Part shown: one piece after another, positions 13,877 through 18,193 of the stretch | How the letters are laid out: every line of letters begins with the position of its first letter | Position numbering within the stretch: the first letter of the stretch is position 1 | From: Escherichia coli | Lineage (GTDB): Bacteria > Pseudomonadota > Gammaproteobacteria > Enterobacterales > Enterobacteriaceae | DNA: 64,000 bases | Assembly: GCF_002854065.1 (NCBI RefSeq) | Contig: NZ_CP024147.1 | Strand: one strand, 5' to 3' | Program-made: the position numbers and the translations under genes | The notes under the pieces: generated by a model | The model's input: only the letters and a program-made list of their open reading frames with translations | Databases searched by the model: none | Told to the model about the DNA's origin: nothing

Positions 13877-14064
13877 TGACCATCAGCGATATCATTGAAA
13901 TTATTGTCGTTTGCGCACTGATATTTTTCCCGCTGGGCTATCTGGCGCGGCACTCTTTGCGACGCATTCGCGACACCTTACGTTTGTTCTTTGCTAAACC
14001 TCGTTATGTTAAACCGGCTGGGACGTTACGCCGCACGGAAAAAGCCAGGGCAACCAAAAAATGA
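13873..14064 (+). CDS. bcsF: Small membrane protein BcsF
   Basis: 63-aa ORF with one hydrophobic helix ([18 protein letters not shown]); ATGA overlap with bcsE, and its stop overlaps the bcsG start. Confidence 0.85.
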
Positions 14065-15740
14065 CTCAATTTACGCAAAATACCGCCATGCCTTCTTCCC
14101 TCTGGCAATACTGGCGCGGCCTTTCCGGCTGGAACTTCTATTTTCTGGTTAAGTTCGGCCTGTTGTGGGCGGGATATCTTAACTTCCATCCGCTCCTCAA
14201 TTTGGTGTTTGCCGCGTTTCTGCTGATGCCCATTCCGCGCTACAGCCTGCATCGCTTGCGCCACTGGATTGCCCTGCCGATCGGCTTTGCTTTGTTCTGG
14301 CATGACACCTGGTTGCCTGGCCCGGAAAGCATAATGAGCCAGGGTTCGCAGGTGGCGGGGTTCAGTACCGATTATTTAATCGACCTTGTCACACGCTTTA
14401 TTAACTGGCAGATGATTGGGGCCATTTTTGTTTTATTAGTGGCCTGGTTATTCTTGTCACAATGGATTCGCATTACCGTTTTTGTGGTTGCCATACTGCT
14501 ATGGCTGAACGTACTTACCCTGGCGGGACCAAGTTTCTCCTTGTGGCCAGCCGGTCAACCGACGACCACTGTAACAACGACGGGTGGTAACGCAGCGGCA
14601 ACCGTTGCGGCGACGGGTGGCGCACCGGTAGTGGGTGATATGCCCGCACAAACTGCACCGCCAACAACGGCGAACCTTAACGCCTGGCTGAATAATTTCT
14701 ATAACGCGGAGGCGAAACGTAAATCGATCTTCCCGTCTTCGCTGCCCGCTGATGCTCAGCCATTTGAACTACTGGTGATTAATATCTGTTCGCTTTCCTG
14801 GTCGGATATAGAAGCCGCCGGGTTGATGTCGCATCCGCTGTGGTCGCATTTCGATATTGAGTTCAAGAACTTTAACTCCGCCACCTCCTACAGTGGCCCG
14901 GCAGCGATCCGTTTACTGCGCGCCAGCTGCGGGCAGACTTCGCACACTAATCTGTATCAACCGGCAAATAACGACTGCTATCTGTTTGATAACCTGTCGA
15001 AACTGGGCTTTACCCAGCACCTGATGATGGGATATAACGGCCAGTTCGGCGGTTTTTTGAAAGAAGTTCGCGAAAATGGCGGCATGCAGACTGAATTGAT
15101 GGATCAAACAAATCTGCCGGTTATTTTGCTGGGCTTTGATGGTTCGCCGGTTTATGACGATACCGCCGTGCTTAACCGCTGGCTGGACGTTACCGAAAAA
15201 GATAAAAACAGCCGTAGTGCCACGTTCTACAACACGCTTCCACTGCATGACGGCAACCATTATCCGGGCGTCAGCAAAACAGCGGATTACAAAGCGCGGG
15301 CGCAGAAATTCTTTGATGAACTGGACGCCTTCTTTACTGAACTGGAGAAATCGGGTCGTAAAGTGATGGTGGTCGTGGTGCCGGAACACGGCGGCGCGCT
15401 GAAGGGCGACAGAATGCAGGTATCTGGCCTACGTGATATCCCTAGCCCGTCTATCACCGACGTCCCCGTTGGGGTGAAATTCTTCGGCATGAAGGCACCA
15501 CATCAGGGGGCACCGATTGTCATCGACCAACCGAGCAGCTTCCTGGCTATCTCCGATCTGGTGGTTCGCGTTCTTGATGGCAAGATTTTCACCGAAGATA
15601 ATGTTGACTGGAAAAAACTCACCAGTGGGTTGCCACAAACAGCACCGGTCTCCGAGAACTCAAATGCAGTAGTTATTCAATACCAGGATAAACCGTACGT
15701 TCGCCTGAACGGCGGCGACTGGGTGCCTTACCCGCAGTAA
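14061..15740 (+). CDS. bcsG: Cellulose phosphoethanolamine transferase BcsG
   Basis: 559-aa ORF with N-terminal membrane helices and a C-terminal alkaline-phosphatase-like domain; ends 2 bp before the first ldr repeat unit. Confidence 0.9.
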
Positions 15741-15744
15741 GCAC

Positions 15745-15776
15745 GAAAAAGGCCGCAGAGTTTCACCCCTGCGGCC
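15745..15776 (-). terminator. Rho-independent terminator hairpin of ldr copy 1; also abuts the bcsG 3' end
   Basis: Palindrome ggccgcag-N10-ctgcggcc at 15751-15776, with an A-run on the plus strand (a U-run on the minus-strand transcript). Confidence 0.6.
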
Positions 15777-15826
15777 TGGTCCGGGCGCAAATTGCCATTA
15801 CGGCAGCCTGACGCCCGCATGACACG

Positions 15827-15934
15827 TTACTTCCGCTTGTTCAGCCAGTTCACGATCATACTGGCAAGAATGCCAGCAATGACCGGAGTCGCTAAATCAT
15901 GCCAGAAGGCCATGCCCAGTTCTGCGAGCGTCAT
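15827..15934 (-). CDS. ldrD: Ldr-family type I toxin peptide (35 aa), copy 1
   Basis: MTLAELGMAFWHDLATPVIAGILASMIVNWLNKRK; the 80-aa track ORF 15827..16069 is an upstream extension of this 35-aa peptide. Confidence 0.8.
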   Translation of the reverse strand: MTLAELGMAFWHDLATPVIAGILASMIVNWLNKRK

Positions 15935-15984
15935 ATAGCCGCCTGTGTTGTAATGACAACGTTTCGCGGCTATTCTTGAATGGT

Positions 15985-16050
15985 CTAGGTTCAAGATTAG
16001 CCCCCGTGGTGTTGTCAGGTGCATACCTGCAACGTGCGGGGGTTTTCTCT
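15985..16050 (+). ncRNA. rdlD: Rdl-type antisense RNA partner of ldr copy 1 (coordinates approximate)
   Basis: Placed from the recalled LDR architecture (about 66 nt, antisense to the ldr 5' leader, starting about 50 nt beyond the ldr start codon); no ends were mapped from the sequence. Confidence 0.3.
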
Positions 16051-16309
16051 CTCCAGCAACCAATGCCACCAGGGATTAAGCCCCCGCAACATTGCGCATC
16101 ACCGGAATCCTTCCGGCTTATCGCTGATTCTACGACTGTTTTTCTGTTCCGGAATCCGTCACGTCTTCACTCTGTGCTGCGCATTCCGCAGAATATTATC
16201 CGCTTGCAATCGTTGCATTTTTCTTACGAAAAAGGCCGCAGAGTTTCACCCCTGCGGCCTGGTCCGGGCGCAAATTGCCATTACGGCAGCCTGACGCCCG
16301 CATGACACG

Positions 16310-16417
16310 TTACTTCCGCTTGTTCAGCCAGTTCACGATCATACTGGCAAGAATGCCAGCAATGACCGGAGCCGCTAAATCATGCCAGAAGGCCATGCCC
16401 AGTTCTGCGAGCGTCAT
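16310..16417 (-). CDS. Ldr-family type I toxin peptide (35 aa), copy 2
   Basis: MTLAELGMAFWHDLAAPVIAGILASMIVNWLNKRK; differs from copy 1 by one residue (A16 versus T16). Confidence 0.8.
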   Translation of the reverse strand: MTLAELGMAFWHDLAAPVIAGILASMIVNWLNKRK

Positions 16418-16467
16418 ATAGCCGCCTGTGTTGTAATGACAACGTTTCGCGGCTATTCTTGAATGGT

Positions 16468-16533
16468 CTAGGTTCAAGATTAGCCCCCGTGGTGTTGTCA
16501 GGTGCATACCTGCAACGTGCGGGGGTTTTCTCT
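16468..16533 (+). ncRNA. Rdl-type antisense RNA partner of ldr copy 2 (coordinates approximate)
   Basis: Same reasoning as for copy 1, shifted by the 483-bp repeat period. Confidence 0.3.
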
Positions 16534-16892
16534 CTCCAGCAACCAATGCCACCAGGGATTAAGCCCCCGCAACATTGCGCCTCACCGGAACCCTTCCGGC
16601 TTGCCGCTAATTTTACGATTGCTTTTTACTGTCAGCACTCGGCAATCTTCCTCATTGCGTGATGCCTTCCAGCTTAATTTCTTAATTTGCAATAGTTGCA
16701 GTTCATATCCGGGCTGACTCCAGACTGGTAGTGAAATGCGCAATTTTGTAGAATTGCGCCTCCTCGCGACCTCCCCAGTGAATCTGTTGCCTCATTTTTT
16801 ACATACTGCGTATTCGACTTCTCCACCTGTTGCGCAAGAGAAACTGGGTTTATTCATTTTTGCGAGGCCGACTTCTTTCTGGACAGGACTTT

Positions 16893-18164: not shown

Positions 18165-18193
18165 ACCGGAGCGCATGGCCCCGGTTTTGTGAG

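What the first reader, a model, noticed from the sequence alone, without database searches (positions are those of the whole stretch)
15741..15776. The bcsG 3' end runs straight into the terminator hairpin of the oppositely transcribed ldr toxin
Only about 10 bp separate the bcsG stop (15740) from a strong GC hairpin (15751-15776) whose U-run lies on the minus strand, so it is built as the ldr terminator. bcsEFG transcripts reading through would be antisense to ldr mRNA, and the same hairpin is duplicated with the LDR unit at 16234-16259.
Basis: seen in the sequence. Interest (0 to 1): 0.25.

Follow-up and report, generated by a model that had tools for sequence, protein, structure and literature searches.

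The report
ldr toxin terminator abutting bcsG
The hairpin just after the E. coli cellulose gene bcsG is the transcription terminator of the oppositely oriented Ldr toxin gene, a known and ordinary feature that is anciently fixed at this spot; whether bcsG also uses it is untested.

Summary
bcsG stops at 15738-15740. A GC-rich hairpin (15750-15777) starts 10 nt later. Its U-run lies only on the minus strand. An identical hairpin sits at 16233-16260, at the start of the second LDR unit.

The window is the E. coli bcsEFG | LDR-D (ldr/rdl type I toxin-antitoxin, two tandem units) | yhjV locus. K-12 has the same junction with one unit.

The hairpin is the ldr intrinsic terminator and part of the LDR unit:
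- Every LDR copy examined has it, including ldrA/B/C at another locus.
- Its stem covaries across genera.
- Its wobble pairs work almost only in the ldr-sense RNA.

On the bcsG strand it is weaker and lacks a U-tract, so it is not a canonical terminator there. The first plus-strand intrinsic terminator after bcsG is that of rdl, about 300 nt on. Read-through would therefore be antisense to the whole ldr gene. Published K-12 Term-seq lists no 3' end at the hairpin on either strand, so read-through remains unproven.

New here:
- The bcsG-hairpin junction also occurs in Citrobacter and the Klebsiella oxytoca group.
- Raoultella and Kluyvera have the hairpin without ldr/rdl, a hint of a gene-boundary role.

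Known element, low interest.

The parts
14061..15740 (+). bcsG coding sequence (cellulose phosphoethanolamine transferase), last gene of bcsEFG; stop TAA at 15738-15740
   Evidence: ORF list. Annotation of the near-identical strain CUWW06 and of K-12.
15741..15749 (-). Spacer between the bcsG stop and the stem. It includes the A-run 15746-15750, which is the U-tract (UUUUUCGU) of the ldr terminator on the minus strand. The predicted ldr mRNA 3' end is about 15742-15745. The LDR unit boundary is at 15743.
   Evidence: Sequence, terminator scan, repeat boundary. The 3' end position is inferred from the usual 7-9 nt distance after a terminator stem.
15750..15777 (-). Terminator hairpin of ldr copy 1: 11 bp with a 6-nt loop. 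The core GGCCGC/GCGGCC is invariant across genera.
15782..15817 (-). Second conserved hairpin in the ldr 3' UTR (CGGGCGCA...UGACGCCCG), between the ldr stop and the terminator
   Evidence: Folds. Conserved in all K-12 LDR copies and in other genera.
15827..15934 (-). ldr copy 1, a 35-aa type I toxin (MTLAELGMAFWHDLATPVIAGILASMIVNWLNKRK)
15983..16048 (+). rdl copy 1 antisense antitoxin RNA. Its terminator is the first plus-strand intrinsic terminator downstream of bcsG.
   Evidence: Rfam RF01813, 89.2 bits against a gathering score of 50. Terminator scan. K-12 Term-seq 3' end at 3700201/2.
15743..16225 (-). LDR unit 1 (terminator to promoter region), 483 bp
   Evidence: alignment to K-12 LDR-D.
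16226..16708 (-). LDR unit 2. Its 3' 300 bp are nearly identical to unit 1, and its promoter-proximal part has diverged.
16233..16260 (-). Terminator hairpin of ldr copy 2, identical to the first, followed by TTTTCGTAAG
16310..16417 (-). ldr copy 2 (Ldr with A16 instead of T16)
16466..16531 (+). rdl copy 2
   Evidence: Rfam RF01813, 89.2 bits.

Best explanation
The hairpin is the Rho-independent terminator of the ldr toxin mRNA and an integral end-piece of the LDR (ldr/rdl type I toxin-antitoxin) repeat unit.

On the minus strand, RNA polymerase transcribes ldr and the 3' UTR. The 11-bp GC-rich hairpin forms, and the transcript is released in the UUUUUCGU tract, about 2-5 nt short of the bcsG stop codon. 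This keeps ldr transcription out of bcsG. It probably also gives the ldr mRNA a 3' end resistant to exonucleases.

The LDR-bcsG junction is old. It is shared by Escherichia, Citrobacter and the Klebsiella oxytoca group. That is why the hairpin sits 7-10 nt after the bcsG stop in all of them. Each tandem duplication of the unit copies the hairpin.

On the plus strand the same DNA gives a weaker hairpin (9 bp plus an A.C mismatch) with no U-tract. It is therefore not a canonical terminator for bcsEFG. Most likely it acts at most as a pause or collision site and a 3'-exonuclease block. Polymerases that pass it run antisense through ldr until the rdl terminator (ending at 16048) or until Rho acts.

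Shown: the anatomy, the conservation, the covariation, the strand bias, and membership in LDR-D.
Inferred: the actual termination points, any bcsG read-through, and any effect on ldr.
For: Anatomy:
- An 11-bp stem followed by a T-run on the minus strand only, at both copies.
- The fold is -28.5 kcal/mol, z = -3.9, on the minus RNA and -22.4, z = -2.2, on the plus RNA.
- The hairpin stands alone in the fold of the 379-nt predicted ldr mRNA.

Identity:
- 35-aa Ldr ORFs, rdlD Rfam hits of 89 bits, and a 483-bp tandem repeat.
- The K-12 bcsG-ldrD-rdlD-yhjV locus is collinear and differs by one loop base.

Part of the LDR unit:
- The same stem and U-run are in ldrA/B/C next to kdsA.
- The repeat boundary lies just past the U-run.

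Selection on the RNA structure:
- In 22 distinct hairpins, 96.7% of cells are paired and 5 of 11 pairs change on both sides; for percent paired, further pair types and covariation score 0 of 500 shuffles reach the observed value (1 of 500 for pairs changed on both sides).
- Structures with the 3' partners slid by 1-3 columns pair in 36-61% of cells.

Selection on the ldr strand:
- There are 15 G.U pairs in the ldr sense against 1 in the bcsG sense.
- Unpaired cells number 8 against 22 of 187.
- The ldr-sense hairpin is more stable in 16 of 17 LDR-linked hairpins; in the window it is -22.3 against -16.9 kcal/mol.

Age of the junction:
- It is in 5371 of 5426 E. coli genomes.
- It is also in other Escherichia, Citrobacter amalonaticus and sedlakii, and K. 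oxytoca, grimontii, michiganensis and spallanzanii, with Ldr peptides and rdl hits.
- Fozo et al. 2010 (PMC2887945) infer vertical inheritance of an LdrD group from an enterobacterial ancestor.

Plus strand:
- The 8-nt tail after the stem contains 1 T.
- The C/G ratio downstream peaks at 1.56, just below the 90th percentile of the window background (1.59), so any rut site is weak.
- K-12 Term-seq lists plus-strand ends inside bcsG (3699668) and at rdlD (3700201/2) but none at the hairpin.
Against: - No experimental 3' end for ldrD at this hairpin could be retrieved. The Adams et al. curated list has no minus-strand end here. It also lacks ends for kdsA and ldrA-C, so it is not exhaustive.
- The hairpin persists next to bcsG in Raoultella and Kluyvera, which have no ldr or rdl there. 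This does not fit a purely ldr-serving element and points to some use on the bcsG or boundary side.
- The sequences in the covariation set are related, so shuffle statistics overstate independence.
Confidence: 0.85

Rival explanations
1. Dual-use boundary element. Besides terminating ldr, the hairpin defines the 3' end of bcsEFG mRNA. It would work in two ways. As a pause site, converging polymerases collide and are released there. As a stem-loop, it stops 3' exonucleases after Rho-dependent or read-through termination further on. On this view little bcsG transcription crosses into ldr.
For: - It is the only stable hairpin between the bcsG stop and ldr.
- In 46 of 56 species-level loci a hairpin of -14 kcal/mol or better starts within 30 nt of the bcsG stop, against 4 of 55 coding control windows. 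These hairpins belong to unrelated sequence families: the LDR type, a CCCTCTCCC...GGGAGAGGG type, and canonical A-tract/stem/U-tract terminators. The position therefore seems to need a hairpin.
- Raoultella and Kluyvera have the LDR-type hairpin next to bcsG but no ldr or rdl. Similarity to the K. oxytoca locus ends 0-6 nt after the stem.
- In Raoultella the A-run is gone and the stem is equally stable on both strands.
- A single-molecule study of E. coli convergent terminators proposes that the hairpin traps polymerases from either side and that collisions complete termination (bioRxiv 10.1101/2022.10.23.513370).
Against: - There is no U-tract on the plus strand, and there is an A.C mismatch in the plus-strand stem in E. 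coli.
- K-12 Term-seq calls a bcsG-internal plus-strand end but none at the hairpin.
- In one Citrobacter amalonaticus genome (L010) a deletion removes half the hairpin, so its loss is tolerated.
- Hairpins at operon ends are generic, so the 46 of 56 figure is not specific.
- There are only two independent hairpin-only lineages.
Confidence: 0.35
2. Reversed origin. The hairpin was originally the terminator at the bcsG/dpp gene boundary, as in Kluyvera today. The ldr/rdl cassette later settled beside it and adopted it. Later duplications, both tandem and to the kdsA-chaA locus, carried it along.
For: - In Kluyvera intermedia the hairpin lies in the 80-nt gap between convergent bcsG and dppF, with its U-run on the dppF strand.
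- It is near-identical to the K-12 ldrA terminator, including the loop GGGGTAACA, with one compensatory A-U to C-G change.
- The hairpin-only lineages show a break of similarity right at the stem edge. This would also be expected if the cassette were an insertion next to a pre-existing hairpin.
Against: - Every LDR copy at a different locus has the hairpin.
- E. coli dppF uses a different hairpin, shared with yhjV.
- LDR at bcsG is found on both sides of the Escherichia-Klebsiella split, and Raoultella is, from general taxonomic knowledge rather than any test here, close to the K. oxytoca group. Loss is therefore more parsimonious than repeated gain.
- Fozo et al. 2010 infer vertical descent with losses.
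- The direction of the event cannot be read from the breakpoints alone.
Confidence: 0.12
3. Chance palindrome or generic intergenic repeat (REP/BIME-like) with no specific role.
For: The simple terminator scan finds 8 sites in the 5-kb region against 5.8 expected by chance, so such patterns are common.
Against: - These two sites are by far the strongest, with 11 pairs and 8 G-C.
- Covariation and conservation hold across genera.
- Position and orientation are fixed relative to ldr in every LDR copy.
- The 23-mer of the hairpin has no other match of 18/23 or better in the 64-kb window, apart from one site inside bcsG.
- Rfam gives no other family here.
Confidence: 0.01

Closest known systems
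LDR-D (ldrD/rdlD) of E. coli K-12, described by Kawano et al. 2002 (Mol Microbiol 45:333, as cited in PMC4147584)
   Same: It has the same flanking genes (bcsG, yhjV), the same 86-nt gap from the bcsG stop to the ldr stop, and the same hairpin apart from one loop base. It also has the 35-aa toxin and an rdl RNA opposite the ldr 5' UTR.
   Different: The window carries two tandem units where K-12 has one. Copy number at this site varies from 1 to 3 among E. coli, and BL21(DE3) has three (PMC5435950).
Bidirectional (overlapping) intrinsic terminators between convergent genes in E. coli (SEnd-seq work of Ju et al. 2019, from my own knowledge; collision model in bioRxiv 10.1101/2022.10.23.513370)
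   Same: One hairpin sits between two convergent transcription units, and the two 3' ends would fall within a few nucleotides of each other.
   Different: The canonical form has an A-tract upstream and a U-tract downstream, so both strands read stem plus U-run. Here only the ldr strand has it, and wobble pairs weaken the plus-strand stem. True examples after bcsG are seen in other genera (L016, L043, L045, L048).
3' stem-loops that stabilise mRNA ends after Rho-dependent termination or read-through (REP-type elements; the Dar and Sorek 2018 concept, PMC6061677)
   Same: On the plus strand this is a GC-rich stem with no U-tract directly after a stop codon. It resembles the CCCTCTCCC...GGGAGAGGG hairpins after bcsG in Enterobacter, Lelliottia and Kosakonia.
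   Different: No plus-strand 3' end at the hairpin is listed in the K-12 Term-seq data I could read. The element is not a member of a dispersed repeat family.
hok/sok-type toxin mRNAs, whose 3' end folds back on the 5' end
   Same: The ldr mRNA is predicted to be very structured (z = -8.3), with the region between the stop and the terminator pairing with the start-codon region. There is a weak match of the ldr 5' UTR to the Rfam 'sok' model (30.6 bits, below the gathering score of 59). Reviews propose hok-like control (PMC4147584).
   Different: In the predicted fold the terminator hairpin takes no part in the long-range pairing. No 3' processing of ldr mRNA is documented in what I could read.

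Membership tests
Rho-independent (intrinsic) terminator, ldr strand | GC-rich stem-loop | tested here: met
   11 bp with 8 G-C pairs and a 6-nt loop; -22.3 kcal/mol for the 28-nt core.
Rho-independent (intrinsic) terminator, ldr strand | U-tract directly after the stem on the transcribed strand | tested here: met
   UUUUUCGU when the closing U is counted. It is conserved in all LDR-linked copies.
Rho-independent (intrinsic) terminator, ldr strand | Lies downstream of the gene's stop codon, same strand, no intervening gene | tested here: met
   The ldr stop is at 15827-15829 and the stem starts 49 nt downstream.
Rho-independent (intrinsic) terminator, ldr strand | Base pairing maintained by compensatory change | tested here: met
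   5 of 11 pairs change on both sides and 96.7% of cells are paired.
Rho-independent (intrinsic) terminator, ldr strand | Transcript 3' ends map to the U-tract | tested here: inconclusive
   No minus-strand end is listed here in the Adams et al. 2021 supplementary file 1. The list also lacks kdsA and ldrA-C ends. Other data sets were not retrievable.
Rho-independent terminator, bcsG strand | U-tract directly after the stem on the plus strand | tested here: not met
   The tail is GGUCCGGG, with 1 T in 8.
Bidirectional terminator between convergent genes | Hairpin between convergent genes | tested here: met
   bcsG (+) and ldr (-) converge on it.
Bidirectional terminator between convergent genes | A-tract upstream and U-tract downstream, so both strands have stem plus U-run | tested here: not met
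   Only the A-run at 15746-15750 is present.
LDR / ldr-rdl type I toxin-antitoxin locus | 35-aa hydrophobic Ldr peptide gene | tested here: met
   Two ORFs, annotated as Ldr family toxin in the near-identical strain.
LDR / ldr-rdl type I toxin-antitoxin locus | cis-antisense Rdl RNA opposite the ldr 5' UTR | tested here: met
   RF01813 at 89.2 bits, found twice.
LDR / ldr-rdl type I toxin-antitoxin locus | Long direct repeat of about 500 bp | tested here: met
   Period 483, with 300 nt nearly identical.
LDR / ldr-rdl type I toxin-antitoxin locus | Toxicity of Ldr and repression by Rdl | not testable with these tools
   Reported for LdrD/RdlD in K-12 (review PMC4147584).

The most novel reading that the evidence does not exclude
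The LDR terminator hairpin is a conserved gene-boundary element in its own right, and bcsEFG transcription is wired to the toxin.

Polymerases leaving bcsG pass the U-less hairpin and produce a long antisense RNA. This RNA covers the ldr 3' UTR, the coding region and the Rdl target, and ends at the rdl terminator. It would act as an Rdl-independent repressor, by RNA duplex formation or by polymerase collision, and so tie Ldr expression to activity of the cellulose-modification operon.

The presence of the hairpin beside bcsG in lineages without ldr/rdl there (Raoultella, Kluyvera) would reflect this boundary function.
Probability: 0.1. Interest if true: 0.45.

Novelty: already known. Interest (0 to 1): 0.17.

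Why it matters
It matters little as it stands. The hairpin is the terminator of a toxin-antitoxin repeat described in 2002, and the K-12 reference genome has the same junction.

The comparative results add modest points:
- The bcsG-LDR junction predates the split of Escherichia, Citrobacter and the K. oxytoca group.
- The stem is under selection on the ldr strand.
- Two lineages have the hairpin but no toxin at this site.

If bcsEFG read-through were shown to silence ldr, it would be a simple natural case of a housekeeping operon acting as a second antitoxin for a type I toxin. It would also give a handle on the still unknown physiological role of Ldr.

Tried and rejected
- Published 3'-end maps. 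Only Adams et al. 2021 (PMC7815308) had readable tables, and they list nothing at the hairpin. No supplementary tables were held for PMC9023263, PMC6061677, PMC8848933, PMC4161252 or PMC12259150. The SMRT-Cappable-seq tables (PMC6131387) do not mention these genes. The SEnd-seq paper, the Kawano 2012 review and the Fozo 2008 review are not held.
- REP or another known RNA family. Rfam gives only rdlD, plus a sub-threshold 'sok' match on the ldr 5' UTR.
- Rho-dependent termination just after bcsG. The C/G ratio reaches only 1.56, just below the 90th percentile of the window background (1.59). No Rho region is listed between bcsG and rdlD in Adams supplementary file 2; the nearest is 3700397(+), beyond rdlD.
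- My first hairpin scan of bcsG flanks tested only even lengths and used a faulty single-stem filter. I discarded it and replaced it.
- A 23-nt segment inside bcsG that resembles the hairpin (pair I1). I judged it a probable coincidence of the conserved PVGVKFFG codons.

Full report
**What is at the coordinates**

The window is E. coli chromosome. A 1.7-kb query around the finding matches 5425 of 5426 complete E. coli genomes. The best match is 99.8% identical and is annotated bcsG, ldrD, a second Ldr-family toxin, and yhjV.

- bcsG runs 14061..15740, with its stop TAA at 15738-15740.
- Ten nucleotides follow (GCACGAAAAA).
- Then comes the palindrome GGCCGCAGAGTTTCACCCCTGCGGCC at 15751-15776.
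- With the closing A-U pair the stem is 15750-15777: 11 pairs, 8 of them G-C, with a 6-nt loop.
- On the minus strand it is followed by TTTTCGTGCT. On the plus strand the tail is GGTCCGGG.
- An identical hairpin lies at 16233-16260.
- That second hairpin is inside a tandem repeat, 15743-16042 = 16226-16525, period 483.

**Is it more than chance?**

- A 50-nt minus-strand RNA folds at -28.5 kcal/mol (z = -3.9; 1 of 200 shuffles as good). The plus-strand RNA folds at -22.4 (z = -2.2).
- The 191-bp junction spanning the bcsG end and the hairpin is present in 5371 of 5426 genomes.

**What the surroundings are**

- Two 35-aa Ldr ORFs lie on the minus strand, at 15827-15934 and 16310-16417.
- Two rdlD antitoxin RNAs lie on the plus strand, at 15983-16048 and 16466-16531. 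Each scores 89.2 bits against Rfam RF01813, whose gathering score is 50.
- This is the LDR-D long direct repeat of K-12. MG1655 has bcsG (ending at 3699893), ldrD (3699980-3700087), rdlD and yhjV in the same order and with the same spacing.
- The K-12 junction aligns base for base with the window, apart from one loop base and one base of the bcsG-hairpin spacer just outside the repeat unit.
- K-12 has one unit and the window has two. E. coli genomes carry one to three at this site, and BL21(DE3) is reported to have three (PMC5435950).

**Is the hairpin the ldr terminator?** Four lines of evidence say yes.

1. Only the ldr strand has the U-run.
2. The hairpin travels with ldr rather than with bcsG.
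   - K-12 ldrA, ldrB and ldrC lie next to kdsA. They have the same stem GGCCGCAGG/CCUGCGGCC and a U-run on the ldr strand.
   - The tandem-repeat boundary in the window (15743) falls two or three bases past the U-run.
3. The pairing is maintained by compensatory change.
   - I aligned 22 distinct hairpins from Escherichia, Citrobacter, Klebsiella, Raoultella and Kluyvera.
   - 96.7% of cells pair and 5 of 11 pairs change on both sides. For percent paired, further pair types and the covariation score none of 500 shuffles reaches the observed value (one does for the count of pairs changed on both sides).
   - Structures with the 3' partners slid by 1-3 columns pair in only 36-61% of cells.
   - The sequences are related, so the shuffle test overstates independence. 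The changes GCAG:CUGC to GCAA:UUGC and to GCCG:CGGC are nevertheless clear.
4. Selection acts on the ldr-sense RNA.
   - Among LDR-linked hairpins there are 15 G.U pairs in the ldr sense and 1 in the bcsG sense.
   - Unpaired cells number 8 against 22 of 187.
   - The ldr-sense hairpin is the more stable one in 16 of 17 cases. In the window it is -22.3 against -16.9 kcal/mol.

In a fold of the predicted 379-nt ldr mRNA (-181 kcal/mol, z = -8.3) the terminator stands alone at the 3' end. The 5' end of that mRNA is my own guess, taken from a TAGAAT -10 box.

**What happens on the bcsG strand?**

- The plus-strand RNA forms a 9-bp stem interrupted by an A.C mismatch and has no U-tract. It fails the definition of an intrinsic terminator and of a canonical bidirectional terminator.
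- The C/G ratio downstream peaks at 1.56, just below the 90th percentile of the window background (1.59), so any Rho-utilisation site is weak.
- The first plus-strand intrinsic terminator after bcsG is that of rdl, ending at 16048.
- A polymerase that passes the hairpin would therefore copy the antisense of the ldr 3' UTR, the coding region and part of the 5' UTR. The resulting RNA would end with the Rdl sequence.

Whether read-through happens is not shown. In the curated Term-seq tables for MG1655 (Adams et al. 2021, PMC7815308):

- The plus-strand 3' ends in this locus are at 3699668, inside bcsG (window 15515), and at 3700201/2, the rdlD end.
- Nothing is listed at the hairpin on either strand, and ldrD never appears.
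- The nearest Rho-dependent region is 3700397(+), beyond rdlD.
- The same tables lack kdsA and ldrA-C ends, so absence from them is weak evidence.
- No other 3'-end data set could be read.

**Comparative genomics**

I scanned one genome per species with the BcsG C-terminus. This gave 58 loci, of which I analysed 56.

*Loci with LDR.* The arrangement is: stop codon, 7-10 nt including an A-run, GGCCGC...GCGGCC, then one to three LDR units with Ldr peptides and rdl hits. It occurs in:
- other Escherichia species;
- Citrobacter amalonaticus and C. sedlakii;
- Klebsiella oxytoca, K. grimontii, K. michiganensis and K. spallanzanii;
- a Klebsiella metagenome bin.

The neighbour on the far side differs: yhjV and dppF in Escherichia and Citrobacter, and a bcsZ-like endoglucanase gene in K. 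oxytoca. The conserved linkage is therefore bcsG with LDR. This fits the vertical inheritance with lineage-specific duplication and loss inferred by Fozo et al. 2010 (PMC2887945).

*Loci with the hairpin only.* Two lineages have the hairpin but no ldr or rdl.
- Raoultella, together with 'Enterobacter sp. JUb54', which has the same locus. Similarity to K. oxytoca ends at the 3' edge of the stem. The A-run is lost and the stem is equally stable on both strands.
- Kluyvera intermedia. The hairpin sits in the 80-nt gap between convergent bcsG and dppF, with its U-run on the dppF strand.

*A counter-example.* One Citrobacter amalonaticus genome (L010) has a deletion running from the hairpin loop into ldr, so the hairpin can be lost.

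*Hairpins after bcsG in general.* In 46 of 56 loci a hairpin of -14 kcal/mol or better starts within 30 nt of the bcsG stop. Only 4 of 55 control windows inside bcsG do so. The hairpins belong to unrelated families.

Together these observations hint that a stem-loop at the end of bcsEFG is useful in itself, and that in E. coli the ldr terminator fills that slot. They do not prove it. I give that dual-use reading about one chance in three. The reverse history, in which the hairpin is ancestral to the bcsG/dpp boundary and was adopted by ldr, cannot be excluded from the breakpoints alone. It is less parsimonious.

**Verdict**

- The element is the known terminator of the known LDR-D toxin-antitoxin unit.
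- What remains open is experimental: where bcsEFG transcripts end, and whether they affect ldr.
- Interest is low.

Noticed in passing
window 15466-15488 (+), inside bcsG: CCGTTGGGGTGAAATTCTTCGGC matches the ldr-sense hairpin sequence at 19 of 23 positions. It is the only other site in the 64-kb window with 18/23 or better. It encodes the conserved peptide PVGVKFFG and stays at 14-20 of 23 in other genera, so it is probably a coding coincidence. The K-12 Term-seq 3' end inside bcsG (3699668 = window 15515) lies 27 nt downstream of it.
   Followed up: partly
L008 3244-5164 (Escherichia sp. MOD1-EC7003): A group II intron lies on the ldr strand immediately after bcsG (Rfam domains D1-D4 and the intron 3' domain). 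Its 3' end (...CCTAC) joins TCGATGCTTACTGCGG, which is in or just after the U-run of the ldr terminator. The contig breaks at the intron 5' end (GTGCG), so the upstream exon is not seen. Some bacterial group II introns are known to insert just after terminator stem-loops (my own knowledge).
   Followed up: partly
L028-L032 (Raoultella clade) about 3250-3279; L039 (Kluyvera intermedia) 3251-3276: LDR-type hairpins sit next to bcsG with no ldr or rdl. In Raoultella a methionine-aminopeptidase-like gene follows. In Kluyvera the hairpin is the only structure between convergent bcsG and dppF.
   Followed up: yes
window 15743-16121 (-), predicted ldr mRNA: The mRNA is predicted to be extremely structured (z = -8.3). 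The 3'-UTR segment between the stop and the terminator pairs with the start-codon region in the minimum-energy fold, reminiscent of fold-back inhibition in hok. The ldr 5' UTR gives a sub-threshold hit to the Rfam 'sok' model (30.6 bits against a gathering score of 59).
   Followed up: no
window about 16728 (+), equivalent to K-12 3700397: Adams et al. 2021 list a strong Rho-dependent termination region (score 13.3, 'orphan') on the plus strand between rdlD and yhjV. The plus strand just after rdl is C-rich (C/G 1.8 at 16040-16117).
   Followed up: no
window 15892 vs 16375: The two LDR units differ by one base in their first 300 nt, which gives Ldr T16 in one copy and A16 in the other. Their promoter-proximal 180 nt are much more diverged, so the two ldr copies may be expressed differently.
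   Followed up: no
L034, L036, L038 (Klebsiella oxytoca group) internal unit junctions: The junctions between tandem LDR units repeat the last bases of bcsG (CAATAAAACGAAAAA, or a diverged copy of it in L036 and L038). The duplicated unit there starts inside the bcsG stop-codon region. In E. coli the unit starts 3 nt after the stop.
   Followed up: partly
window 18165-18193: yhjV (+) and dppF (-) converge with only 29 nt between them. They share one small hairpin (ACCGG...CCGGT), followed by TTTTG on the yhjV strand.
   Followed up: no
L010 3241-3450 (Citrobacter amalonaticus AUH_CA_2023_1): A deletion runs from the hairpin loop into the ldr coding region. It leaves half a hairpin, the first 14 codons of ldr and a weak rdl hit (51.8 bits): a decaying LDR.
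   Followed up: partly
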